Source: a virus (Duplodnaviria > Caudoviricetes). Taken from it: 64,000 nucleotides of DNA. This document shows positions 21,793 to 64,000 of this stretch, piece after piece; the stretch's first letter is position 1, and every line of letters starts with the position of its first letter. The stretch spans positions 100,552-164,551 of IMG/VR virus record IMGVR_UViG_3300011429_000087; one strand, 5' to 3'. Below the pieces are notes generated by a model. It had not been told where the DNA came from. It worked only from the letters and a program-made list of their open reading frames with translations, and did no database searches. A program made the translations under genes and the position numbers.

Positions 21793-22893
21793 TTATAGCG
21801 TAATCGAATTGTCATGTTTTAACTCCTTCACAAGTTGTTCTTCCGTCATCTTCCATAACCACTCTGTTGGCTGTTTATTGGATAGTAATTGAAATACACC
21901 GGCCTGATATTCGTGCGGCACATTTGCCTGAATCCAAATGGCATGATATTTACGCCATATTTTAGGATCATAGGTTGGCCCATCCGACGGGTTAAGGCCG
22001 CTTACTTTCTTCCACCATTCATTGATTTCTGCGTTAATTTTATTATAACGATTCTGTACCAACGCAATTACATCGTCTAGGACCACTCGCCACGTTGGCG
22101 GGCACTGAGCGGCCACCGCCGCTATCGAACCGTCTCGACAGCCCTCTACGACGCGAGGAATCGAGACATTAGTGAGGAAGCGGTGGGCCATTACGTAGAC
22201 TGGCGACTTCGCCTTAACTCGGAGGCCCGACGCAAAGCGTATGACGTAGCCCTCTTCATTCTCTGCGAACGGAAGGTTGCCTAGATCGGTGTGTCCACAA
22301 ATCTTGGGACGCCCGAAACCACAAAAGATGGCTAGATCATTTACCTGTTGCGTGGGCCATTCTGAGCCGTCTCGATTAAAGACAGTTAATAGAACGAGTT
22401 CACGCCGACCGGCGTAATCAACAACAATACGGTTCTCTGGATATAGGATCTCTACTATTGGAGTTACGTTGTCTGGAACTGTAGATAGATCGTACTCCGA
22501 GAGCATCTTCGTAGCTTCGCGTGCCTGTGGCGAATCCATAGAGCCGGGTGTAGCTACGGCCCACTCGCCAGTAGGAAGCTTATACAATGACCCCATTGAG
22601 CCGTCTAGCTTCTCAAAGACTTCGAACGGCTCATTAGGAAGTTTTTCTAGGCTGGCTTCTGGACGCTCTCCAATATTGAAAAATTTTGGAAATGAGCGTG
22701 CGACAAGATCGCCGGTCGTAGTATTGAAAATAATGCCACGACACATGCGATTGATTGGATTCCAGCCATCTTCGAAGGCACAAACGTCAGTATACTTAAA
22801 AATGCTTAGATGTGGAAATGCCGGATGCGTCTGTTCGCTTACGCGAGCAGCCGCAACCTCGGCACGTATCATATCAAGCAAAGCCATCGTCAT
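21793..22893 (-). CDS. RNA ligase 1 (T4 RnlA family)
   Basis: CRGIIF, SFPKFFN, EKLDGS, EEGYVI, RVKAK. Confidence 0.9.
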   Translation of the reverse strand: MTMALLDMIRAEVAAARVSEQTHPAFPHLSIFKYTDVCAFEDGWNPINRMCRGIIFNTTTGDLVARSFPKFFNIGERPEASLEKLPNEPFEVFEKLDGSMGSLYKLPTGEWAVATPGSMDSPQAREATKMLSEYDLSTVPDNVTPIVEILYPENRIVVDYAGRRELVLLTVFNRDGSEWPTQQVNDLAIFCGFGRPKICGHTDLGNLPFAENEEGYVIRFASGLRVKAKSPVYVMAHRFLTNVSIPRVVEGCRDGSIAAVAAQCPPTWRVVLDDVIALVQNRYNKINAEINEWWKKVSGLNPSDGPTYDPKIWRKYHAIWIQANVPHEYQAGVFQLLSNKQPTEWLWKMTEEQLVKELKHDNSITL

Positions 22894-23439
22894 TAGATCA
22901 CCTGAATCCATTTAGAGTTTTGCCAACGAACCCCATTCTTATTGAGGCCAACCACTAGCATATCACCGGCAGTCAAATTGTCAACCGCAACCGACCAGAA
23001 ATCATTGACTGCTTGCTCTGGCGTCTTGCCGTGAGTTTTAGCAGAAACTACATCAATTAGGCCGTTATCTGCTCTTTGCAGACGAATCTGCGTTGATAGA
23101 TACCACGTATTCTTGGCACTGAGTTTAAGTGCCAAATTGGGATCAATCTGATTAAGCCGAGCGAACTTCTCAAGCCATGTTAGACTATAGTTCATGGGTA
23201 CATCTCACTTAAATGATCTTGTATACCAATATAAATTGGCTTAGGTATAGACTCTCTCATAAACATATCTTCATTTTCAAAGAGTTTAGCCGCCCTAGTA
23301 TATTGACGCTTCAATAAAAAATTACATATCTTTAACATAGCATGTAAATCATCGGCCGAATGATTTCGTAATCTTCCAGTGCCCTTGTTAATAGCCCTTA
23401 AGATTGTACGTCTCCAACCTCTAATATTTTGTGGATTAA

Positions 23440-26812: not shown

Positions 26813-27391
26813 TCATGACTTTTCCAATTTCATTTTATATCTTTCTTTTATGTCTTTTCTACAAGTTCTGCAAACTCGCCCCCCGTTTGGCAATACATAA
26901 GTATTTTTTATTGTAAATTCGTGAGATCGCTTACAGTGAGTTTTTCTAGCGTTTTGGGCACATATTCCGTAACCACGTAGTACGTTCTCTGCATTAGTGA
27001 CCAACTCCATATGTATCGGATTAATACATGCCCTATTTCTACATAAATGATCTATAGTCAGAATATCATTTATTGGACCGTATATTTGTTCGTAGCACCA
27101 TCTGTGTGCTTGCCAAGTTTCACCTTCATAAGAGAAATTACCATAACCATCACGATCTTTATAACCAGCCCATTCAATACATCGTATACCGTTAAATAAT
27201 TTATCTGTAAATAAAAGATGGGAATTAAATCTTGTAATTGGATCTGTACGAGATAATACACGTAATCTATACGTTTCTTTTCTTAAGCTTTTTTCTGTTC
27301 TTTTAAGTATATCTAATAAATCTTTTGTGGGAATGACGCCATAAAAATCTATTAATATCTGTTTGTCTTCATTTGTCCATGAACCAATCAT
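26813..27391 (-). CDS. HNH homing endonuclease
   Basis: CIEW..GYG..AHR..IDHLCRNRACINP.H. Confidence 0.9.
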   Translation of the reverse strand: MIGSWTNEDKQILIDFYGVIPTKDLLDILKRTEKSLRKETYRLRVLSRTDPITRFNSHLLFTDKLFNGIRCIEWAGYKDRDGYGNFSYEGETWQAHRWCYEQIYGPINDILTIDHLCRNRACINPIHMELVTNAENVLRGYGICAQNARKTHCKRSHEFTIKNTYVLPNGGRVCRTCRKDIKERYKMKLEKS

Positions 27392-28383
27392 GATTTTAAT
27401 AAGTAATCCGATCCAACTATTTTTAATTTAATTCTTCCATATTTTGGATGGGTTTTATCTGGCACAGGTTGTAAAACCACGCCTTCTTTAATATGTGTGA
27501 CATTGGGAACGGTCGTTTGACCTTCAGATAGAGCTTTTGTATCTTCTATATTAAATGGTCCTCGATATAAAATAGGAACCCATTTAGTTTCGTCGGTCGT
27601 CATACAATCGTCATTAAGTGTGGCTAGCCAAACTGCTTCATCAAAGTTTAGCCATTGTCCTTTGTAAAAAATATCAAAGGCTCTAAAGAAAACTTGGTTA
27701 CTTGTACGACCATACGGAAATCCCTTAAGATGACCATAGATTTCTCCATAGAGCATGTGGTCGGGACTTGCTTCGCAGAATTTTTTTATCCACGGATTTT
27801 GCTCCAGACATTGCCACCATAGACTATTTGGATCTTCCATCTTCCATTCTTTGCATCCGGCAAACATCTTGCCATGGGTAAATACAAAGCGTCCTGTTGA
27901 ACCTTCTAATTTTTCAGAGATAACTACTTCTTCGCCCTCAGTTAGCAAGGCTGTACGGTTATAATAATTATCAAGATCATAGACCGGCCAATATCCATTG
28001 GGGCCTTGGCATGAAGCCCCTTTGGTGCTTAGGGCGTGTAGTTCTGACTCGTATCTTTCGACCTGAAGGCGTTCTAGGTAATTCTCGCCGAGTACAGCGT
28101 CATCAGGGGCAGGGATCAAAAAGCCATACGAAGTAACCCCACGTAACTTCTGTACCCTAACTCTATGTTTTGGGCCATGCCCAGGCTTCGCTAACCAACT
28201 AAACTCGCTCCGCGTTGTATCCACCACGTAGTCCGGTGGAATATAAATTCCTTTTTCTACACCTTCCCACTGTGCAGAATTAATGCATACGGTCCAACCG
28301 TCGACCTTGACAAGACTAAGCTTGTCGGCATTTGGATGTTTCTCTTTAATAATTTGAACCACTGGGATTAGATGATCTGACAT
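27388..28383 (-). CDS. RNA ligase, DRB0094 family
   Basis: N-terminal HPNADKL OB module, SEKLEGS, LYGEIYG, FRAFDI, KEGVV, KLKIV. Confidence 0.85.
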   Translation of the reverse strand: MSDHLIPVVQIIKEKHPNADKLSLVKVDGWTVCINSAQWEGVEKGIYIPPDYVVDTTRSEFSWLAKPGHGPKHRVRVQKLRGVTSYGFLIPAPDDAVLGENYLERLQVERYESELHALSTKGASCQGPNGYWPVYDLDNYYNRTALLTEGEEVVISEKLEGSTGRFVFTHGKMFAGCKEWKMEDPNSLWWQCLEQNPWIKKFCEASPDHMLYGEIYGHLKGFPYGRTSNQVFFRAFDIFYKGQWLNFDEAVWLATLNDDCMTTDETKWVPILYRGPFNIEDTKALSEGQTTVPNVTHIKEGVVLQPVPDKTHPKYGRIKLKIVGSDYLLKS

Positions 28384-55973: not shown

Positions 55974-56315
55974 GGGGTGATTTTAGAAGAACTCCAGAGA
56001 TTATGGGAGCATGGGGTGGATTTATCTTCCTCTTAAGTGGAATCCTAAAAGACTTAGCTTTTCCCTTACTATTATGCCTGGAATTCAGGAGGGAACGAAA
56101 GACGCTTACCAGGAAACCTAATCTCATCAATCCTCAGGATCGCCTTACTTAAGCCGAGGGGCGACGCCGGATGTGCGGGGTCCGCCCCGTGGCCGGGCAC
56201 GGGCAAAAAGTGCATGGGGGTGGGGTCGCACCACCAACGGCAAGGTTTTCCCCAAACCGGTCCGAGGGACTCTCTTGCCTATCTGGCCCACATTTAGAGC
56301 CACCCGTGCATAGAT

Positions 56316-56553
56316 AGGATACCACGTTTCCGTGGCGTGTCAAGTCGGTTTCCCTTTTCAGGGATCGTTGACGCCCAGAGTATACGTCAAGAACCCCACC
56401 TGTCAAACTGAAAAATAAAAAAGATTTAACCTTGACAAATTCGGCGGCGTGTGTTATGCTTCGTGGTTCGGAGGATGAGACGGCGTGCCGATCCGGCACA
56501 AAAGAATTTCCCCGATTTCTACTTGCATTCTTCAGGAATCGCGGTACTATACT
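56316..56553. promoter_or_regulatory. Divergent promoter cluster
   Basis: Leftward TTGACA-N16-TATCCT (56316-56343) and TTGACA-N16-TATACT (56379-56406); rightward TTGACA-N17-TATGCT (56432-56460) and TTGCAT-N16-TACTAT (56523-56550). Confidence 0.75.
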
Positions 56554-56581
56554 GACGTTCCGAAACACAAGGGAGAAACCG

Positions 56582-57535
56582 ATGAGTGCAGAAGTCGAAA
56601 CGGATCGTGGGGCCTTCACTGAGAAGGCCGCGTGGTGGGATACCGATGGTGTCCGGGTCATCAATGAACGTCTTCCGATGGAGGACTTTCTCGTCAAGGC
56701 CCGTATGTCCTACAATGTCACCAAAGAACAAGCAACCCGTTTCAATAAGGCGGGAGTGCAGGTCGATGTACCGAATCAGTTTAATCTGATTCGTGACGAT
56801 GACGAGACGGTTGTGTCACCGTCTACGGTTACGAAGAAGTACGAAGTTCGTATCCCTCGCGATCTCGCGATGGTCGTCGATCCGATCGTGCAGGGCGGAC
56901 TCGGTATCTATGATACCGCCTTCACGCTATACGGTGGACAGTCGGAAGTCGTGACGGTTCGTCTATGTGACATCAAGTCAAAGCCCGGAAACGACTCAAG
57001 CGATTGGACCTATTACCTTGTGTGCCAGAACTATCACGGTACTGGTAAGGCACGTTTCAAGATCGCCGGAAATCGTGTCGTCTGTCACAATACGGTTACT
57101 GCCGCGTTCGCTGGCGGGGCTGATCTTTCAATGGTTCACACTAAGAGTATCGTGCAGAAGTTCGCCGATGCTCCCAAAGTCTGGACGGCTGCCGCTACTG
57201 CCATTGCCGCACACTGTGACAAGCTGGCAAAGCTGGACAAGGTTGTAAACGTCCCGGAGACGATCGACGAACTGTTGGCGATCGACGACGACGCGACGAC
57301 TCAGCAGAAGAACCGTCGGGATCGTCTGGTCGCTGCCGCTTGTATGCCGATGATGGGAACGCACGGTAGGACTCTCTACGACATCTTCAATGCCGTCACC
57401 TACGACACGACGCACAACGCGGGCGGCAAGGCGGGGAAGACGATGACGGGCCGAATGGAATCTATTTTGGATGGAACGCGAGGAGACTTTGAAGAGACGA
57501 TGACGAGTAAGCTGTTTGCTCTCGCCGGAGTCTAA
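56582..57535 (+). CDS. DUF932-family phage/plasmid protein
   Basis: AW, R.D...V...Y, YL...N.H.G.G, RVVCHNT, HT, GRT.Y..FNAVT...H. Confidence 0.8.
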   Translation: MSAEVETDRGAFTEKAAWWDTDGVRVINERLPMEDFLVKARMSYNVTKEQATRFNKAGVQVDVPNQFNLIRDDDETVVSPSTVTKKYEVRIPRDLAMVVDPIVQGGLGIYDTAFTLYGGQSEVVTVRLCDIKSKPGNDSSDWTYYLVCQNYHGTGKARFKIAGNRVVCHNTVTAAFAGGADLSMVHTKSIVQKFADAPKVWTAAATAIAAHCDKLAKLDKVVNVPETIDELLAIDDDATTQQKNRRDRLVAAACMPMMGTHGRTLYDIFNAVTYDTTHNAGGKAGKTMTGRMESILDGTRGDFEETMTSKLFALAGV

Positions 57536-57549
57536 AAAGAAAGCAGAAC

Positions 57550-57574
57550 GTGGGGCCGGGAAACCCGGCCCCAC
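57550..57574 (+). terminator. GC-rich hairpin after the DUF932 gene
   Basis: GTGGGGCCGGG-AAA-CCCGGCCCCAC; no clear U tract. Confidence 0.5.
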
Positions 57575-57591
57575 TGGGGGACTAAAAAGAC

Positions 57592-57993
57592 GTGCCACGC
57601 AAAGATAAAACAAAACATCAGGAGTATAGTTTAGTACGTTATCATCAAAGACGTGCTAACGCGATTGAGTTTCTTGGTGGGCAGTGTGTCAAATGTAAAT
57701 CGTTAGATAGGTTAGAATTTGACCATATAAATCCCGCCACAAAGTCATTTCACGTCAACGATAAAATTTCTGGCGATTTAGATACTCTTATGCCAGAATT
57801 GCTTAAGTGTCAACTTTTATGCCATAGTTGCCATATGCAAAAAACTATTCTTGAGCGTGGAGATAAACCGTCCCAACATGGGTCAACTACTATGTATGGG
57901 CACGGCTGTAGGTGTCAATCTTGTAAAGCGGCAAATGCTACCTATTGGCAAAAATATAAAGCCAAAAAAAGACTTGACGCCACTAAAAAGTAG
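57592..57993 (+). CDS. HNH endonuclease
   Basis: LGGQCVKC..LEFDHINP..K..C.LLCHSCH; GCRC..C tail. Confidence 0.85.
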   Translation: MPRKDKTKHQEYSLVRYHQRRANAIEFLGGQCVKCKSLDRLEFDHINPATKSFHVNDKISGDLDTLMPELLKCQLLCHSCHMQKTILERGDKPSQHGSTTMYGHGCRCQSCKAANATYWQKYKAKKRLDATKK

Positions 57994-58198
57994 AGTATAC
58001 TAGCGTCATGGGTTACTATTATTTGCCGGGCGGAAACCACGGCGACCCGATGCGGGCCCTAAAGCTTCTGGTGAAGTTTCTTCTATGGGCAAGCCTGATA
58101 GGATTTATCGTCCTGTTGGTTCGAAAGATCACCGGAAAGATTCCTTGACTTCCGCGAGAGGCGGGGTAAAGTAAGGTAACTTCAAAAGGATCAAGACG

Positions 58199-58516
58199 AT
58201 GGACGAGACGACTAAGGCAGTCAACTACCTCCGCTCCAATGCCTGGGACTACCGCTCGCGGTTCGGCCATGATCGCAATACGTTCAGATACATCAGTGCC
58301 ATCAAGCAGGTTCGGGAAGATTTGGGGCTGACGTTGAGGGTGGCGAAGGATGCGATGGATCAGTGGCGGGACGCTGGTTTTCCGTCCGAGTTCTCCAATG
58401 CCATGCCAAATATCACTTTGTCCGGGGCCAAGCTGATTATGCAGAATCTTCTGCTTCGCGGCCTGCCCGGCCTGACCTCCCTGGAAAGGGATGCCATCCG
58501 TATCCTCGCTGATTGA
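58199..58516 (+). CDS. Protein with ribosomal bL12 (L7/L12) CTD-like motif
   Basis: ISAIKQVREDLGLTLRVAKDAMD; own promoter at 58145-58172. Confidence 0.55.
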   Translation: MDETTKAVNYLRSNAWDYRSRFGHDRNTFRYISAIKQVREDLGLTLRVAKDAMDQWRDAGFPSEFSNAMPNITLSGAKLIMQNLLLRGLPGLTSLERDAIRILAD

Positions 58517-58531
58517 CACCACAACAGGACG

Positions 58532-58585
58532 AAGACCGTCTCGACAATAAACTCCGAGTGGAGCTACGCCGGGGCGGTCTTTTTT
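58532..58585 (+). terminator. Intrinsic terminator
   Basis: AAGACCGTCTCG...CGGGGCGGTCTT followed by a T run. Confidence 0.6.
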
Positions 58586-58816
58586 AATTTGACAAACTTT
58601 TTTGATATGATAGACTTTGGGGGTCAACGCTTCCGGGACTTTAGGGCTGTTCTCTCCCCAGTTCTTTTCAGGCCACTTCCCGATTCCTCCTCGGGTCGTT
58701 CGGCTCTGACTTCAGAATACCTCAGAACTGGAAAGACGCAACCCGCAAAATAAAAATAAAAACTAGCTTGATTCCTGTAAGTCTTAGGCTATACTATTGG
58801 CACAAGGAAACCATAA

Positions 58817-59350
58817 ATGACACGCCACGAACTTCTGACGCTGTGCGAGACGATCCGGGGCGAGCTTCTTCCAGGATTCCCGGAAATTCAGACGGTACGG
58901 TTTTCGATCAGCAACCGCTATACGCGAAGCCTGGGGCGTGCTCGTTACTGCACGGGGGAAGTGATCCTGTCGGGCCCGGCCTACGTTGCCGTATCCCTGA
59001 ACGATCACCTTGCACCTGATACCGTCCGTCACGAACTAGCCCACATAGTGGCGTGGCGGCGTCACGCGGTGGCGGGGCACGGGCATACGTGGCAACGCCT
59101 TGCCGTGTCGATGGGATGCACGGGCGACCGCTGCACGCTAGGTGTGAAGCTTGGGAATGAAGTTACGCTGTCCTGTGGGGCCTGTGGGCATCAGACGGAG
59201 GAACGGGAAAACACTCTCAGAAGGTGGCACCGAAAGGGATCGCGTGCTATGTGCCCCAAGTGCCTTAAGGGCCTGCCGTTCCCCTGGGAAAGGTCCGTCA
59301 TGATGGCGGCGGCAGAGACGCCGAAAAGAATTTTGATTCAGAGGGGTTGA
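58817..59350 (+). CDS. SprT-like Zn metalloprotease with C-terminal Zn ribbon
   Basis: TRSLGRA, HELAH, GHG..W, CGAC..CPKC. Confidence 0.85.
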   Translation: MTRHELLTLCETIRGELLPGFPEIQTVRFSISNRYTRSLGRARYCTGEVILSGPAYVAVSLNDHLAPDTVRHELAHIVAWRRHAVAGHGHTWQRLAVSMGCTGDRCTLGVKLGNEVTLSCGACGHQTEERENTLRRWHRKGSRAMCPKCLKGLPFPWERSVMMAAAETPKRILIQRG

Positions 59351-59374
59351 CATCCTGAAAAGGTAGGGTACAGT
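59347..59374 (+). promoter_or_regulatory. sigma70-type promoter TTGACA-N16-TACAGT
   Basis: Direct match upstream of an ORF-free structured region. Confidence 0.7.
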
Positions 59375-59379
59375 ATGAA

Positions 59380-59630
59380 CGCCGGGACGGTTCGCTACCG
59401 CCGGTTGAGCGAAGCCCAACAAGCCTAGCACCCTGAAGCGGGTAGCTTCAATGCCCATACCGTTCCGAGGCTAAGAGGGACGGCGGGGCCACGTATGCCC
59501 CGTTAACAAAACGAGCCGCAAGGTTCGGTAGCTAGCATCACTACCCTTTTAAGGTAGGACGGAATCCCCATGGCTTTTTCATAGCTATGCCGTTAGGTGT
59601 GAAAAGGGCCCCGAGAGGGATCTCGGGGCC
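59380..59630 (+). ncRNA. Candidate ~250-nt multi-hairpin ncRNA with Lys- and Glu-like anticodon stem-loops
   Basis: At least 8 stems, G:U pairs valid on + strand, bounded by promoter and a 10-bp terminal hairpin. Confidence 0.65.
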
Positions 59631-59853
59631 TCTGCTATTTCTGGTTGACACCTAGCAAAGCTATGCTATACTCTGGTAACTCAAGGGAGACAGTCGTGCC
59701 CGAATCCATTCAGAAGATCATCCAGGATAGTAAGCTCAGTCCCGCTCAACTTCTGCACGAAGTTTGGACGAACCTTCGACTGCTCGATTCTGTCAACGGC
59801 ACGAACTATGCCAAACAGATTTCTAAAGAGCTTGAGAAATGGAGGGTCGACAG

Positions 59854-60072
59854 ATGAAGTGGACAAAGCGACAGCCCAAGGTTAGCGGCTACTACTGGCT
59901 GAAGCAACCGCAACGCGACGGGGGCTACTACATTCCTACCGTGGTCAAAGTCAAGATTAGTGACGATCCAGAATGGCCGGAGGCGACTTATTCCTCCTGC
60001 AATTATGAGTTGGACTCCGACTTTCATCCTGCGGCCCTTTGGGCCGGGCCGATTCCGCCCCCGAGGGACTAA
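59854..60072 (+). CDS. Small phage protein, paralogue of 21417..21638
   Basis: MKWTKRQPKVSGYYW...WAGPIPPP; GGAGG SD. Confidence 0.6.
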   Translation: MKWTKRQPKVSGYYWLKQPQRDGGYYIPTVVKVKISDDPEWPEATYSSCNYELDSDFHPAALWAGPIPPPRD

Positions 60073-60301
60073 CATGGAACACAGAATCAAAACGAGCCGG
60101 GGCGAAATCCTTATCAAGGATTCGCACATCTTCGAGATCGTCGTTCCCGATAACGAGCAGCTTGTCGTGACTTTCAGGGAATCAAATCTTTCCTTTAGGG
60201 TTGGCGGACTTCCTGGGGACGCCAAAGCTACGCCCCAGTGCGGAAGGGATTTTCAGGTTGACAAGTCCCAGTAAGGTGGCATAATGGGGCTTCGCCTCAA
60301 C

Positions 60302-60377
60302 GGCCCTGTCGTCCAACGGCCAGTGACGCCGCCCTTTCAAGGCGGAGACGAGAGTTCGACCCTCTCCAGGGCTACCA
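60302..60377 (+). tRNA. tRNA-Glu(TTC)
   Basis: CCGCC-CTTTCAA-GGCGG, CCA; own promoter at 60258-60285. Confidence 0.9.
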
Positions 60378-61000
60378 CTTGACACCTTTAAGAACTGAGG
60401 ATATACTACTCTCAACTTCAAAGGGGAACCAAATGGACCTGTTCAAAAAGATCCGCGAAATCCAGGATGAGAAATGTCTGCGGGATGAGGATATGGTTCT
60501 CCTCTTGTGCATCAATCTTCAGATTTTGGACTCGACGTTCCTAACGAGGCATGGGGAAAAAATCGTGGCAGAGCTTGCGTGTCCAAAAAGCTGAGTTATA
60601 GTTATCTCAACTTCAAGGGAGCTAACTTATGTGCCGCGACTGGACCGGGGACCACGAAATCCGAGCCGACGAGGAAGACGACGTTAAGGGCTGCGTCGAG
60701 TGCGGTCAGAAGGATTGCCCGGGTGACTGCGATCCTTACGCTCATTTGCCGTTCCTTCGGAAGTATGAGCCGACGGACGAAGAACTTGAAGAGATGAACC
60801 GCGTGTGGCAAAATGCACACCGGGGATGTGTGGGGAACTAAAATGCCACAATCTCTTTTCGACTACATCCGTGAGTATCAAGACTCGCACGATTGTAGTG
60901 ATGACGACATGATTGAGATTCTTTGCGATTGCATCGAAGTTGTTCAGAATGCCGATCCTAAGTGGGAAAATCTGACTGGACTTATAAAGGAATGTCTTTC

Positions 61001-61074
61001 GGGCTCTTAGCTTAGTGGCAAAGCTACCGGCCTTTAACCGGCAGACCGGGGTTCGATTCCCTGATAGCCCACCA
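61001..61074 (+). tRNA. tRNA-Lys(TTT), C33 variant
   Basis: ACCGG-CCTTTAA-CCGGC, A73, CCA. Confidence 0.85.
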
Positions 61075-61082
61075 ATTAACCT

Positions 61083-61270
61083 TTCTGCCACCCCTGTACT
61101 AGATGGCGTCATGGGTGGAAACCAAAGCGATCCGGTGCCTCGGGGCGGGACTTTAACCTGTCCTCGGGGCACTAGTATTTTTTGCCGTTTCACGGCAAAG
61201 CTTGTTCTCCTCCCGGCGACCTTGGCAGTTGTGTTAACACTATAACACAGAATTGGCTGGCGTCCAGCCA
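61083..61270 (+). ncRNA. Candidate structured RNA downstream of tRNA-Lys, with Lys- and Glu-like anticodon stem-loops
   Basis: 15-bp stem capped by ACTTTAA; TTTGCC-GTTTCAC-GGCAAA; further hairpins. Confidence 0.55.
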
Positions 61271-61324
61271 GAAATAAAAGATTTGACTTTGTAAGATTAT
61301 GTGCTATATTGTGGTGGGTGAAAT

Positions 61325-61657
61325 ATGAAACTCTTCCTCGACGACGAGAGGGCCCCACCCTCACCACAGTATCAAGTGGCATACCAAGGCTGGCAAGCAG
61401 TTGTCTACCTTGTGAGAAATAATTTCGCCATCGAGGAACTGAGTCTCGATCATGACCTAGGCGATGGTGTGCCAACTGGCTACGATGTTGCCGCTTGGCT
61501 TGAGAAAGTTGTTCTCACGCAAGGCGTACAGCCTCCAAAGATCCTGCGGGTACATTCTGCCAACCCTGTCGGTCGGGCACGGATTTTGCAAGCTTTTCAG
61601 AGCATCGCAAGATACTGTGAAGCGAATGGGATGGAGATTCCTCAAGTTTTCGGTTGA
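61325..61657 (+). CDS. Cyclic-phosphate-processing receiver-like domain protein
   Basis: KLFLDDER.P, LSLDHDLG..TGYDV, HSANPVG; own promoter at 61283-61310. Confidence 0.8.
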   Translation: MKLFLDDERAPPSPQYQVAYQGWQAVVYLVRNNFAIEELSLDHDLGDGVPTGYDVAAWLEKVVLTQGVQPPKILRVHSANPVGRARILQAFQSIARYCEANGMEIPQVFG

Positions 61658-61737
61658 CACAACGCGAAGCGAGAGTATACTAGGACCAGCTTCACGGGTT
61701 GTGAAGTCTAAACATTCCCTTTTTAGGAGTTCGGACA

Positions 61738-62004
61738 ATGGCGAAGCAGATTCAGGTTACGAAGTCGTGGGGCATCGGCTCCATCCCCGAGACGAAGGGC
61801 CGCTACATTCTGTGCGGCTCCGACTACTCAGCCCCGCGTTTCATCGACGCCGTGTCGGTCGGGAACGGCGTCAAGGTGTTCAATATGGACGGCACCGAAG
61901 TTCGTCAGGACGCGACGCTGCGTCACTTCGGCCCGCTGCCCGGTCAGGACCGCTCGATTGCGGCCTCTGCCCGGTTCGCTGCGGAGCCGGCCCAGGCGAG
62001 CTAA
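61738..62004 (+). CDS. Small hypothetical early protein
   Basis: AGGAG SD, promoter at 61654-61681, downstream hairpin. Confidence 0.65.
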   Translation: MAKQIQVTKSWGIGSIPETKGRYILCGSDYSAPRFIDAVSVGNGVKVFNMDGTEVRQDATLRHFGPLPGQDRSIAASARFAAEPAQAS

Positions 62005-62394
62005 CGCCTCGGGATTCGTCAGCCTCGGCGGGGTCAATCCCCCGCCGGGGCAGTTTTGCGTTTAAAGGGTACACGATGAACGAATTTCTCATTCGATGTT
62101 ATCTTGCATACCTTCGGTTTCGTGATATAGTGTGGGACCAACTAAGCGGCTTGCGAGATTCACTTCGGGACGGGACTTCCCGTCTCGGAAATCGAGGATG
62201 CACTATGGGGAATCATCTTCCATGAGTAACGACATCGCCCACTTTAATTCGCCCGGCCCTTTCGTTGTGGCCGTAGGCAATGCGTTCGATGGGCTCGTGG
62301 TGTACGGCCCGTTTGATACGTCGGAGGATGCTCAAACGTTTGGGGAAGGCTGTAAGAGGGGAGAGGACTGGACGATCGTGAAGCTTGAGAAGCC

Positions 62395-62841
62395 GTGAGT
62401 TTCCTACTCACAATCTTCCTTTCAGTGGGTGGCACGGATTTAGCTACACTTGATGTTAAGCGTGAAGAAATTCGCCCCCTACTAAATGCTCTAGCGGTAG
62501 TCGAGTCTAACAATAACGATGCCGCCGTGGGCGACAATGGGCGTGCCATAGGACGCTATCAGATTTGGGAAATCTACTGGCATGATGCTGTAGAGTTTTG
62601 CCCTTCTCTTAAGGGGGAATATCAGGACGTACGTAGTAAAGACTACGCTGAAAGAATCATAACGGCATATCTCTTGCGTTACGCTAGGGATGCCGTAGAG
62701 TGTAAGGATTTCGAACAGTTGGCCCGTATCCACAATGGGGGTCCGAAAGGGCACAAGAAAAAAGCTACCCTGAAATATTGGAATAGGGTGCGGGAAAATC
62801 TAGAAGTGCCGAAACGACGCTTTATATACTGGAAAATCTAG
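62395..62841 (+). CDS. Invertebrate-type lysozyme/destabilase-like muramidase with signal/anchor
   Basis: VES..GD..G.YQI..YW.DA..Y..RY..ARIHNGGP.G..T..YW. Confidence 0.75.
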   Translation: MSFLLTIFLSVGGTDLATLDVKREEIRPLLNALAVVESNNNDAAVGDNGRAIGRYQIWEIYWHDAVEFCPSLKGEYQDVRSKDYAERIITAYLLRYARDAVECKDFEQLARIHNGGPKGHKKKATLKYWNRVRENLEVPKRRFIYWKI

Positions 62842-63060
62842 CCAGTTCCTTTTGTGCCAGAGTCGCCCTTTATAAGGGCGGAGCGGTGGCTGCATCCCCA
62901 GGCCCGGCAACGGGCCGAAAATTTTTCCGAGTAAGTTTTACCAACTCGGTTTTTTCTGGCACGCTTTTTGCTCAGTGGCGTTACTTTTTGGTAACGGTCA
63001 ATTCTTCCGTCACCATTCAGTAACACTAGTCGCCCGGTGGGCACACTCTCCAACGCTACT

Positions 63061-63132
63061 AATCTATCTCCGATTTTTAGAGTGTCAAATAATTTTTAAA
63101 TCTCTTGACACCCTTTTAAGGTATGGTATTCT
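63061..63132. promoter_or_regulatory. Back-to-back promoter pair
   Basis: Leftward TTGACA-N16-TAGATT; rightward TTGACA-N16-TATTCT. Confidence 0.55.
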
Positions 63133-63170
63133 AAGAATGTCTAGGAAGCATTAAGGAAAGGAAACAAATC

Positions 63171-63455
63171 ATGCCAGAATGCTACTGCGATTCTGTGACG
63201 CATCCGAACGGCGAATGTATGGCAAATTATGCCATTCCCGATAGAAGCGGCCCCTACTTCACGAAAGGGAAGAAGTATCAAATTCGAAACGGTATCGGCA
63301 ATCTTTATGCCGTGACTGACGATTTGGGGCACGAAAGATATCTTTCCAAGCAAGATGGGGTGCCATGTCCGCACCTTCCGCCATTGGGAAATCTTCAGCA
63401 TCATAGATGCTTTAGCTCCGAACATCTTGGACAATGGAAGTATATGGCGAATTAA
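63171..63455 (+). CDS. Hypothetical protein
   Basis: AGGA SD, downstream of promoter. Confidence 0.55.
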   Translation: MPECYCDSVTHPNGECMANYAIPDRSGPYFTKGKKYQIRNGIGNLYAVTDDLGHERYLSKQDGVPCPHLPPLGNLQHHRCFSSEHLGQWKYMAN

Positions 63456-63765
63456 TAGGGGCCAATTTCAGAAGTGATTAAAAATCATATTAATGCAAAA
63501 AATGGGCCAAAATCTGCCCCTGTCATGTTTGTTACCATCCGGTGACGTAACCGGCTGGTAACAGTCACCAAACGGTAACGGAAATATATTCCGATCTTTC
63601 GGCATTGGCACGATACTTGCTAAAGCGGCAAATCCTGCACTAGTATAGCCTATGCAAGCGGCGACGCAAGAGCGAAAACCCTTCCCACAATTTTCCTTTT
63701 AGTGGAGTTGCCGTCCGTCCGACATAGGTTATAGTCCAAGCGAACCAAACAAAAGGGAATCTACC

Positions 63766-64000
63766 ATGCAGACGATGACACGAAACGAATTGACTGCGTT
63801 TCTGACGGGGATTCGGGGGGCGACGTTCGCGACTCTGACGACAGAGACAGAACCGAAACTACTGAAGACCGGGAATACGCTCGGGAGCGTTCGGAAGGTG
63901 TCTCGCGTGAACGTCTGTCTTGGGTTTCAGTATGAAGCCGCAGTAAACCGTCAGCGAATCCGGGAAGATGGGATTCCCGATTTCGAAGCAAAGCCCCGGC
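63766..64000 (+). CDS. Phage hypothetical protein, truncated by the window end
   Basis: MQTMTRNEL..GATFATLTT..YEAAVNRQR; SD-like AAGGGA. Confidence 0.6.
   Translation, partial: MQTMTRNELTAFLTGIRGATFATLTTETEPKLLKTGNTLGSVRKVSRVNVCLGFQYEAAVNRQRIREDGIPDFEAKPR

What the first reader, a model, noticed from the sequence alone, without database searches (positions are those of the whole stretch)
59380..59630. Stand-alone ~250-nt structured RNA displaying a canonical tRNA-Lys anticodon arm and a Glu-like arm
Seen: promoter TTGACA-N16-TACAGT, no credible ORF, and a terminal hairpin GGCCCCGAGA-GGGA-TCTCGGGGCC. Stems include GCCGG/CCGGT, TGAAGC/GCTTCA, CCGTTCC/GGGACGG, GCGGGGC-CACGTAT-GCCCCGT, CGAGCC-GCAA-GGTTCG and a closing GCCTAGC/GTTAGGT. 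CTACC-CTTTTAA-GGTAG (59541-59557) is a 5-bp stem with the 7-nt loop of bacterial tRNA-Lys(UUU). CATGGCT-TTTTCAT-AGCTATG (59569-59589) is a 7-nt U33-UUC-A37 loop. Caveat: the 14-mer acccttttaaggta recurs in the promoter spacer at 63110, so it could instead be a DNA operator.
Basis: partly seen in the sequence, partly recalled or inferred. Interest (0 to 1): 0.82.

Follow-up and report, generated by a model that had tools for sequence, protein, structure and literature searches.

The report
New modular phage non-coding RNA
This is a real non-coding RNA gene with its own promoter, from a previously undescribed family found in a few large soil phages; base-pair covariation supports its fold, but the tRNA-like loops that drew attention are not conserved in its relatives.

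Summary

Rfam 15 gives no match even at E<=10. I found four further distinct variants on metagenome contigs from related phages, plus at least seven near-identical copies from other samples.

A covariance model aligns them. 16 of 37 pairs carry changes on both sides and 98.8% of cells are paired, against 38-47% in slid controls.

The part shared by all variants is a 3' domain, a four-way junction:
- P1: GUAGC pairs with the 3' tail GCUAU.
- P4: a variable arm.
- P5-H5: carries the invariant internal loop AAUCCC.
- T: a GC-rich terminal hairpin with an invariant GGGA loop.

The "tRNA-Lys arm" is the cap of the variable arm P4. Its loop reads CCUUAAA in the 91%-identical relative. In two other types a 65-nt or larger three-way junction takes its place.

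The "Glu" hairpin (H5) is conserved as a helix, but its loop is not. In six of seven near-identical copies U59575 is G, which breaks the pair that closes the 7-nt loop.

So this is a new, modular, structured phage RNA of unknown function. It is most likely a stand-alone early RNA acting in trans. The anticodon-decoy reading is not supported. No expression data could be obtained.

The parts
59347..59374 (+). Sigma-70-type promoter of the RNA (-35 TTGACA, 16-nt spacer, -10 TACAGT). The -35 abuts the stop codon of the SprT-like gene.
   Evidence: Equivalent promoters precede the RNA in L003 (TTGACA-16-TAGAAT), L029 and L044 (TTGACT/TAGAAT). None is obvious in L028.
59381..59405 (+). Pa hairpin of the optional 5' domain (outer GCCGG/CCGGT, inner CGGT/ACCG).
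   Evidence: The inner stem covaries: CGGT/ACCG (window), AGGG/CCCT (L028), CGGG/CCCG (L044, L045). Absent from L003 and L029.
59406..59459 (+). Rest of the 5' domain, including hairpin TGAAGC-GGGTA-GCTTCA (59434-59450).
   Evidence: Identical in L028 apart from one base, so no covariation test is possible. L044 has a related but rearranged version.
59460..59483 (+). H1 hairpin CCGTTCC-GAGGCTAAGA-GGGACGG.
   Evidence: Lies within a 59-nt block (59453-59511) that is 100% identical to L003. L029 lacks its 5' half and L044 lacks it entirely, so it is not part of the universal core.
59484..59502 (+). H2 hairpin CGGGGC-CACGTAT-GCCCCG.
   Evidence: The sixth pair is C-G in the window and L003, and A-U in L028 and L029. 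The loop is CACGUAU or CAAUAGAU. The loop variant is shared across types, which indicates recombination inside the gene.
59503..59511 (+). Invariant single-stranded linker UUAACAAAA.
   Evidence: Identical in the window, L028, L003 and L029. In L044, GUUAAC and UAAAAC occur inside the H5 extension.
59512..59527 (+). H3 hairpin CGAGCC-GCAA-GGTTCG.
   Evidence: Covaries: CGGGCC/GGCCCG (L028), GGAAC/GTTCC (L029), GGGU/ACCU (L003). Three of 6 pairs carry changes on both sides.
59528..59532 (+). P1 5' strand GUAGC, a long-range helix with the 3' tail.
   Evidence: GUAGC/GCUAU in the window, L028, L003 and L029; ACAGC/GCUGU in L044 and L045, one compensatory U-A to C-G change. Predicted de novo by MFE folding of L044, by RNAalifold of L003+L029, and by folds of the isolated 3' domains.
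59541..59557 (+). P4 variable arm; in the window a 5-bp hairpin capped CUUUUAA (the 'tRNA-Lys arm').
   Evidence: The stem is CUACC/GGUAG versus CUAGG/CCUAG in L003 and L029 (two pairs changed on both sides). The loop is CCUUAAA in L028. A 64-65-nt insert replaces it in L003 and L029, and a three-way junction with a T-arm-like hairpin replaces it in L044.
59558..59594 (+). P5 (GACGG/CCGUU) enclosing the invariant internal loop AAUCCC and hairpin H5 (59569-59589, the 'Glu-like arm').
   Evidence: Three of 5 P5 pairs and 5 of 6 H5 pairs carry changes on both sides across 6 sequences. GGAAUCCCC is invariant in all. 59575 is T in the window and L021 but G in six other copies.
59595..59606 (+). Purine-rich linker ending in the invariant AAAAG.
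59607..59630 (+). T: GC-rich terminal hairpin with the invariant loop A-GGGA-U. It resembles an intrinsic terminator but lies inside P1.
   Evidence: terminator-like. Five of 10 pairs carry changes on both sides while the loop stays fixed.
59631..59642 (+). Conserved 3' tail UCUGCUAUUUCU; GCUAU (59634-59638) is the P1 3' strand.
   Evidence: Invariant in four variants and CUGCUGUUU in L044 and L045. It is conserved whatever follows: a promoter, an extra hairpin, or a Shine-Dalgarno sequence plus ATG.

Best explanation
The locus is the gene for a stand-alone, early-expressed, structured non-coding RNA of about 260 nt, belonging to a family not described in Rfam.

Shown:
- It has its own sigma-70-type promoter.
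- No reading frame is conserved.
- Homologues occur in related phages, and six helices are supported by compensatory changes.
- The family-wide core is a 3' four-way junction. P1 pairs an internal GUAGC with the 3' tail. P4 is a variable arm. P5-H5 carries the invariant internal loop AAUCCC. T is a GC-rich hairpin with an invariant GGGA tetraloop.
- Upstream modules (Pa/Pb, H1, H2, H3) come and go between variants.

Inferred:
- Transcription ends in the U-rich tail just after T.
- The tail then pairs back to form P1, which tucks the 3' end into the fold and gives a compact, stable RNA.
- This RNA acts in trans during early infection, binding a protein or nucleic-acid partner through its invariant unpaired motifs (AAUCCC, UUAACAAAA, GAAAAG, GGGA loop).
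- It behaves as an accessory, moron-like gene in the host-takeover region.
- The anticodon-like loops in this window are lineage-specific caps on variable arms, not the functional heart of the RNA.
For: Transcription unit: promoter and terminal hairpin. Promoters are conserved in L003, L029 and L044.

Non-coding: no ORF is shared, L044 has none of 25 aa or more, and indels are not multiples of three.

Fold: z = -3.78 on the + strand and -1.9 on the - strand. G-U pairs occur on the + strand only.

No known family: Rfam at gathering score and at E<=10 on the window, L003, L029 and L044; ARAGORN.

Homologues: L003, L028, L029, L044 and L045, plus seven near-identical copies from several samples.

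Covariation: 13 of 37 pairs with changes on both sides in 4 sequences, 16 of 37 in 6 sequences; 98.8-99.4% of cells paired against 37-49% in slid controls; 0 of 500 shuffles reach the observed values.

P1: one compensatory change, and independent prediction in five folds.

Conservation exceeds that of neighbouring genes. A 59-nt block is 100% identical to L003 and the 3' core 76% identical, while the flanking genes are 61-68% identical at nucleotide level and 52-61% at protein level.

The tail is conserved regardless of what follows it. The RNA sits at different places among the early genes in different phages and is absent from the related 169-kb phage contig L036, as expected of an accessory gene.
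Against: Only five distinct variants exist, from one narrow clade, and they are related to each other. The shuffle statistics therefore overstate independence.

P1 rests on a single compensatory event. In the window and L028 it competes with a predicted pairing of GGUAGCUAGC to the 5' domain.

L028 has no recognisable promoter.

In L044 and L045 the tail runs straight into a Shine-Dalgarno sequence and the ATG of a 68-aa ORF with no promoter between them. That fits a cis-acting leader at least as well as a trans-acting RNA.

The U tract after T is poor for an intrinsic terminator.

No partner has been identified. SprT-like, the 72-aa and the 66-aa neighbours do not co-vary in presence with the RNA.
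Confidence: 0.6

Rival explanations
1. Cis-acting structured leader or attenuator, riboswitch-like or protein-responsive. The fold senses a ligand or factor and sets how much transcription passes hairpin T, or how accessible the next ribosome-binding site is, thereby tuning the small early genes downstream.
For: In L044 and L045 the conserved tail is followed within 3 nt by AGGUGG and, 5 nt later, the ATG of a 68-aa ORF homologous to window 60074-60274, with no promoter in between. T is terminator-like with a weak U tract, as in attenuators. A compact junction with invariant internal loops closed by a P1 helix is typical of aptamers (inference from general riboswitch architecture).
Against: In the window and L003 a near-consensus promoter (TTGACA-16-TATACT, 11 of 12 matches) starts 3 nt after the tail, so the downstream genes do not need read-through. 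L028 and L029 insert a second small hairpin, with a U run in L029, after the tail. P1 uses the sequence 3' of T, so T lies inside the fold rather than serving as a separate expression platform. The gene downstream differs between variants. No Rfam riboswitch matches.
Confidence: 0.2
2. One reading: a decoy that presents tRNA-Lys(UUU)-like and tRNA-Glu(UUC)-like anticodon arms to soak up host anticodon nucleases of the PrrC, RloC or AriB type.
For: In this window the two loops do have anticodon-loop form, and 0 of 500 shuffles of the unit give two such hairpins. tRNA-Glu(UUC) and tRNA-Lys(UUU) genes lie 0.7-1.4 kb downstream, and this early pair is conserved across the clade. The phage encodes Rnl1-like and Rnl2-like RNA ligases, which is consistent with pressure on tRNAs. 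Arms in the other types carry T-loop-like hairpins.
Against: The Lys loop is CCUUAAA in the closest distinct relative and is replaced by large domains in the other types. H5 loops vary in sequence and in length from 7 to 9 nt, or carry a long extension. 59575 is G in 6 of 7 near-identical copies, which destroys the 7-nt loop. L036 keeps the tRNA pair but has no such RNA. The invariant parts of the RNA are elsewhere: AAUCCC, the GGGA loop and the tail. From general knowledge, PrrC-type nucleases depend on the modified wobble base, and the enzymes that add it recognise a full tRNA body.
Confidence: 0.07
3. A DNA-level element, or decayed tRNA or tmRNA genes. The hairpins would be operator palindromes, promoter-spacer relics, or remnants of a tRNA cluster with no function as an RNA.
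For: The 14-mer ACCCTTTTAAGGTA recurs in the spacer of the promoter at 63105. The RNA's own promoter spacer contains AAGGTAGG, as the P4 arm does. L044 holds a perfect T-arm-like hairpin that scores locally against the tmRNA model. The region is rich in tRNA genes.
Against: Compensatory changes maintain six helices. G-U pairs make the structure strand-specific. There is no cloverleaf, acceptor stem or CCA end, and ARAGORN and Rfam tRNA/tmRNA models find nothing at gathering score. A repeated 14-mer is not unusual in 64 kb. A 59-nt block is 100% conserved against 52% protein identity next door, which is not decay.
Confidence: 0.04

Closest known systems
Small stable RNAs of unknown function encoded beside the tRNA genes of T-even and T5-type phages, such as T4 RNAs C and D (recalled from the literature, not checked here)
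   Same: Phage-encoded, non-coding, 100-300 nt, in or near tRNA gene regions, transcribed by host RNA polymerase early in infection, partly tRNA-like hairpins, function unknown.
   Different: No sequence or structure homology could be tested, because no model for them turned up in the Rfam searches. The T4 RNAs are co-transcribed with tRNAs and processed, whereas this RNA has its own promoter and a terminal hairpin. The four-way-junction core with AAUCCC and the GGGA loop is not described for them.
tRNA anticodon stem-loops (tRNA-Lys UUU, tRNA-Glu UUC)
   Same: In the window only: 5-bp stems with the 7-nt loops CUUUUAA and UUUUCAU, which have the Y32-U33-NNN-R37 form.
   Different: No cloverleaf, no acceptor stem or CCA end, and the loops are not conserved in homologues.
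GOLLD and ROOL, large structured RNAs often found in prophages next to tRNA genes (Rfam families)
   Same: Phage-associated, highly structured, modular with variable arms, located near tRNA genes, function unknown.
   Different: They are 2-3 times larger. Nothing matched in the window, L003, L029 or L044 even at E<=10.
Bacterial Y-RNA-like YrlA (stem plus a tRNA-like module that binds Rsr/Ro)
   Same: A modular RNA combining a conserved helix with T-arm-like elements; types B and C carry T-loop hairpins.
   Different: No Rfam match, and no TROVE (Rsr/Ro) or RtcB gene in the 164-kb contig. The T-loop is absent from the window's type.
Riboswitch aptamers and attenuator leaders
   Same: A multi-helix junction closed by P1, invariant internal loops, and a terminator-like hairpin; in L044 it sits directly before a ribosome-binding site.
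   Different: In most variants it is an independent unit followed by a new strong promoter. T lies inside P1. No known aptamer class matches.

Membership tests
tRNA (RF00005; ARAGORN) | Cloverleaf with a 7-bp acceptor stem, D arm, anticodon arm and T arm | tested here: not met
   ARAGORN and Rfam find 17 and 15 tRNAs in the window but none at 59380-59642. There is no hit at E<=10 on 59250-59750.
   59541-57 (CUUUUAA) and 59569-89 (UUUUCAU) in the window.
   The loop is CCUUAAA in L028. A 64-65-nt insert replaces it in L003 and L029, and a three-way junction in L044. H5 loops vary. 59575 is G in 6 of 7 near-identical copies.
   Needs biochemistry.
tmRNA (RF00023; ARAGORN) | tRNA-like domain with an acceptor stem and T arm, plus a tag reading frame | tested here: not met
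   ARAGORN finds none. The only hit is a 17-nt local T-arm match in L044, at 13 bits against a gathering score of 47.
Any Rfam 15 family (4227 models) | Score at or above the family's gathering threshold | tested here: not met
   The best sub-threshold hits are unrelated (ftsZ-DE on the opposite strand, 27 bits against 72).
Y RNA / YrlA ribonucleoprotein | A linked or co-encoded Ro/Rsr (TROVE) protein, usually with RtcB | tested here: not met
   No TROVE or RtcB match in the 164-kb contig, which is about 80% complete.
Intrinsic terminator (hairpin T only) | GC-rich stem followed by a U run | tested here: inconclusive
   It passes the simple scan, but the tail CUCUGCUAUUUCU is U-poor next to the stem, the loop is invariant, and the tail pairs with GUAGC to form P1.
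Structured non-coding RNA (general criteria) | Helices maintained by compensatory substitutions in homologues; no conserved ORF | tested here: met
   16 of 37 pairs carry changes on both sides and 98.8% of cells are paired, against 38-47% in slid controls. No ORF is shared.

The most novel reading that the evidence does not exclude
The RNA is a modular decoy scaffold. A conserved four-way-junction core, stabilised by tucking in its own 3' end, carries exchangeable arms that imitate parts of tRNA: an anticodon-like hairpin in this phage, and T-arm or T-loop hairpins in the other types. These arms would titrate host tRNA-targeting defence proteins early in infection, working alongside the conserved early tRNA-Glu/tRNA-Lys pair and the phage RNA ligases. 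Rapid turnover of the arms would then reflect an arms race rather than lack of constraint.
Probability: 0.08. Interest if true: 0.85.

Novelty: new variant of a known kind. Interest (0 to 1): 0.5.

Why it matters
Few phage-encoded structured RNAs are known and almost none are understood. This one is well supported for its size: it has its own promoter, six covarying helices, a 59-nt block identical between phages whose neighbouring proteins are only about half identical, and a modular build in which whole arms are exchanged.

It sits in the host-takeover region of large tRNA-rich soil phages. Next to it lies an early tRNA-Glu/tRNA-Lys pair that is conserved across the clade, and the same genome carries two RNA ligases. 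That context points to a role in translation-centred conflicts between phage and host.

Even without a known function it is a ready candidate for a new Rfam family and for structure probing. The comparative data also correct an attractive but unsupported reading, the anticodon decoy.

Tried and rejected
- Phage database searches with the locus and with an 8-kb flank found nothing.
- A viral-contig scan with the SprT-like protein gave only one weak, unrelated locus.
- Exact-pattern scans for core motifs gave only chance hits, in coding DNA or unrelated terminators. This covers viral contigs, metagenome contigs and genome contigs. All hits were checked by BLAST or by the covariance model.
- L005/L015 and L006/L017 share the 15-mer TAGGACGGAATCCCC after promoter-like sequences, but show no further similarity.
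- For several relatives the DNA could not be fetched: the contigs carrying P0004, P0007, P0009 and P0012. The P0007 contig has a 367-nt gene-free gap at the expected place.
- Distant relatives of the 72-aa neighbour (L040-L042) and the 169-kb relative L036 have no copy.
- The full-length MFE fold pairs the 5' GGGACGG with the 3' CCGTT and closes the molecule with the ends. I rejected this because covariation supports the local P5 helix instead.
- A small leaderless ORF (MNAGTVRYRRLSEAQQA) at the 5' end is not conserved in L028.
- A 51-52-aa frame in L003 and L029 diverges after about 17 residues through an indel, and is absent from the other types.
- I considered pairing between the P4 loop and the conserved early mRNA leader CUUCAAAGGG. 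It gives 9 of 10 pairs in the window but fails in L028 and type B, so I dropped it (inspection).
- I considered a kissing interaction between AUCCC and the GGGAU of the T loop. Both are invariant, so covariation cannot test it, and a 4-nt loop makes it sterically doubtful.
- Two literature searches found no described decoy of this kind and no matching phage RNA.

Full report
**Setting**

The window is the last 64 kb of a 164,551-bp IMG/VR phage contig, about 80% complete. It carries 17 tRNA genes. The final 8 kb (56000-64000) differs from the rest:
- GC is about 51% against about 41% elsewhere.
- Genes run on the + strand.
- Near-consensus sigma-70 promoters are dense: 21 found against 5.2 expected.

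The genes here are small and mostly unannotatable. Those with a match are a DUF932 protein, an HNH endonuclease, a SprT-like metalloprotease (58817-59350) and a destabilase-like lysozyme. This looks like an early, host-takeover region.

**Checking the observation**

The promoter is at 59347-59374 and the GC-rich hairpin at 59607-59630. All named stems are there. No credible ORF exists.

The + strand folds better than all 200 shuffles (z = -3.78), while the - strand gives z = -1.9. Two hairpins with anticodon-loop form lie 30 nt apart, and none of 500 shuffles of the unit has two. The 14-mer repeat at 63110 is real but not statistically remarkable.

Rfam 15 gives nothing at the gathering score or at E<=10. 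ARAGORN finds no tRNA or tmRNA here.

**Finding relatives**

The phage, viral-contig, metagenome-contig and genome-contig collections gave no true homologue. The large protein collection did.

- The only relative of the SprT-like protein (52% identity) lies on a 2.5-kb JGI contig, L003. That contig carries a clear homologue of the RNA downstream.
- Relatives of the 72-aa protein encoded just downstream (59854-60069) led to seven near-identical copies of the locus from several samples (L018-L023, L027).
- They also led to a 91%-identical variant (L028) and a further variant (L029).
- A covariance model built from the window and L028 (R1) recovers L029 at 122 bits and L003 at 111 bits.
- With filters off it also recovers a shorter, more divergent form in L044 and L045 (31 bits, E about 1e-8).

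The RNA is single-copy in its genome. It is absent from a related 169-kb phage contig, L036, and from more distant relatives.

**Architecture**

Three types exist.

- **Type A** (window, L028) has a 5' domain (hairpins Pa and Pb), then H1, H2, the linker UUAACAAAA and H3, followed by the 3' domain.
- **Type B** (L003, L029) lacks the 5' domain. L029 also lacks the 5' half of H1. In place of the 7-nt cap of arm P4 it has a 64-65-nt insert, which holds a T-loop-like hairpin (UGG-UUCGACU-CCG or GGG-UUCAACU-CCU).
- **Type C** (L044, L045) keeps Pa but lacks H1-H3. Its P4 arm is a three-way junction holding a canonical T-arm-like hairpin (GCGGG-UUCGAAU-CCCGC) and a UUCG-capped hairpin. Its H5 is extended.

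Searches support these descriptions.

All types share the 3' domain:
- P1 5' strand ([G/A][U/C]AGC)
- arm P4
- P5 enclosing the invariant AAUCCC and hairpin H5
- a purine-rich linker ending AAAAG
- hairpin T with the invariant loop A-GGGA-U
- the tail CUGCU[A/G]UUU, which supplies the P1 3' strand

**Covariation**

| Alignment | Sequences | Pairs changed on both sides | Cells paired | Slid controls | Shuffles reaching observed |
|---|---|---|---|---|---|
| A8 | 4 | 13 of 37 | 99.4% | 37-49% | 0 of 500 |
| A9 | 6 | 16 of 37 | 98.8% | 38-47% | 0 of 500 on four of five measures |

In the six-sequence alignment P5 has 3 of 5 pairs changed on both sides, H5 has 5 of 6 and T has 5 of 10.

Individual helices:
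- P4 switches between CUACC/GGUAG and CUAGG/CCUAG.
- Pa's inner stem reads CGGU/ACCG, AGGG/CCCU or CGGG/CCCG.
- H2's sixth pair is C-G or A-U.
- P1 is GUAGC/GCUAU in types A and B, and ACAGC/GCUGU in type C. That is one compensatory U-A to C-G change plus G-U to A-U.

P1 is also predicted without constraints in five folds: the MFE of L044, RNAalifold of type B, and the folds of the isolated 3' domains of the window, L028, L003 and L029. The centroids of L003 and L029 give exactly the four-way junction.

G-U pairs occur only on the + strand. These alignments are fitted to the model and the sequences are related, so the statistics lean towards the structure. Even so, the pattern is far outside the controls.

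**Conservation and mosaicism**

Between the window and L003 a 59-nt block (H1, H2 and the linker) is 100% identical. The 3' core is 76% identical. The flanking SprT-like and 72-aa genes are 61-68% identical at nucleotide level and 52-61% at protein level.

The H2 loop variant CAAUAGAU is shared by L028 (type A) and L029 (type B). CACGUAU is shared by the window (A) and L003 (B). Modules have therefore recombined within the gene.

The RNA also sits at different places in the early region:
- after SprT in the window
- after a gp82-like gene in L003 and L029
- between a 73-aa ORF and the homologue of window ORF 60074-60274 in L044

**What this means for the tRNA-arm reading**

The "Lys arm" is the cap of the variable arm P4. 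Its loop is CCUUAAA in the closest distinct relative, and whole domains replace it in types B and C.

The "Glu arm" is H5, a conserved helix whose loop varies in sequence and length:

| Variant | H5 loop |
|---|---|
| window | UUUUUCAUA |
| L028 | AUUUCAUA |
| L003 | UGUCCAUAU |
| L029 | AAUUCAA |
| L044, L045 | extension capped UAAAA |

The one difference among the near-identical copies is T59575G, present in six of seven. It removes the U-A pair that makes the 7-nt loop.

The early tRNA-Glu(UUC)/tRNA-Lys(UUU) gene pair is conserved throughout the clade, including L036, which has no such RNA. The invariant nucleotides of the family lie elsewhere.

So the anticodon-decoy model is not supported as the function of the family. 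It cannot be fully excluded for this lineage, for three reasons. The coincidence of two such loops is statistically unusual. The other types carry T-loop hairpins on the same arm. And the phage encodes Rnl1-like and Rnl2-like RNA ligases.

**Most likely mechanism**

Shown: a promoter-driven, non-coding, structured RNA with a conserved four-way-junction core and exchangeable modules.

Inferred: transcription stops in the U-rich tail after T. The tail pairs back to GUAGC to form P1, which gives a compact RNA with a protected 3' end. This RNA acts in trans through its invariant unpaired motifs on a protein or RNA partner during early infection.

The main rival is a cis-acting leader or attenuator. 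It is suggested by type C, where the tail runs directly into the ribosome-binding site of a 68-aa ORF. Against it, a near-consensus promoter starts right after the tail in the window and L003, and T lies inside P1.

A DNA-level element or decayed tRNA genes are unlikely, given strand-specific covariation and the extreme conservation.

**Comparison and novelty**

No Rfam family matches, and it is neither a tRNA nor a tmRNA. A Y-RNA-like ribonucleoprotein lacks support: there is no Rfam match and the contig has no TROVE or RtcB gene, although the contig is only about 80% complete.

In kind it resembles the small stable RNAs encoded near the tRNA genes of T4- and T5-type phages, and the larger phage-associated GOLLD and ROOL RNAs. 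These comparisons rest on my own knowledge, not on a test run here. In sequence and fold it is new.

I rate it a new variant of a known kind (a phage accessory structured RNA) with moderate interest. It is well supported as an RNA, but it is rare, its function is unknown, and no expression data are available.

Noticed in passing
window 60302-60377 and 61001-61074; L028, L029, L030, L031, L036: An early-region pair of tRNA-Glu(UUC) and tRNA-Lys(UUU) genes, each behind its own strong promoter, is conserved across the whole phage clade, including L036, which lacks the RNA. The window's tRNA-Lys has the unusual anticodon loop CCUUUAA (C at position 33); relatives have UUUUUAA or CUUUUAA. All tRNA-Glu loops are CUUUCAA.
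   Followed up: partly
window 61075-61290: The ORF-free stretch after tRNA-Lys, the subject of another first-stage note, is conserved at 83-90% nucleotide identity over 100-156 nt in L029, L030 and L036. That exceeds the neighbouring genes, so it is probably a second conserved RNA or a tRNA trailer element.
   Followed up: partly
window 21793-22911 (-) and 27388-28383 (-): A T4 Rnl1-like RNA ligase (PF09511, 70 bits) and an Rnl2-type RNA ligase (PF09414, 67 bits) are encoded in the body of the phage, the latter next to a tRNA array. This suggests capacity for tRNA repair.
   Followed up: no
window 56000-64000 and contig start: GC content jumps from about 41% to about 51% at about 56000 and stays high to the contig end. 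The first 4 kb of the contig are also raised (47%), so the early region probably continues across the contig ends. No terminal repeat was found.
   Followed up: partly
window 60408-60435, 60596-60630; L003 1478-1515 and 1700-1738; L036 7826-7862: Early mRNAs share a conserved leader, (C)AACUUCAA(A)GGGA, that runs into the Shine-Dalgarno sequence just after the -10 TATACT. This may be a common translational or regulatory signal.
   Followed up: no
window 57592-57993 versus L018, L019, L021: The 133-aa HNH endonuclease gene is called in the window and in L020, but not in the otherwise near-identical copies L018, L019 and L021. This is a presence/absence polymorphism typical of a homing endonuclease.
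   Followed up: no
L005 9530-9700 and L015 2210-2380; L006 and L017: Unrelated viral contigs share the 15-mer TAGGACGGAATCCCC a short distance downstream of promoter-like -10 boxes, in apparently non-coding stretches. There is no further similarity to this RNA, so it is probably chance.
   Followed up: partly
L028 316-345 and L029 2446-2470: In two variants a small extra hairpin (CUGGC-GUA-GCCAG or CUGGC-UUC-GCCAG) sits between the RNA tail and the next promoter, followed in L029 by a U run. It may be a second terminator.
   Followed up: no
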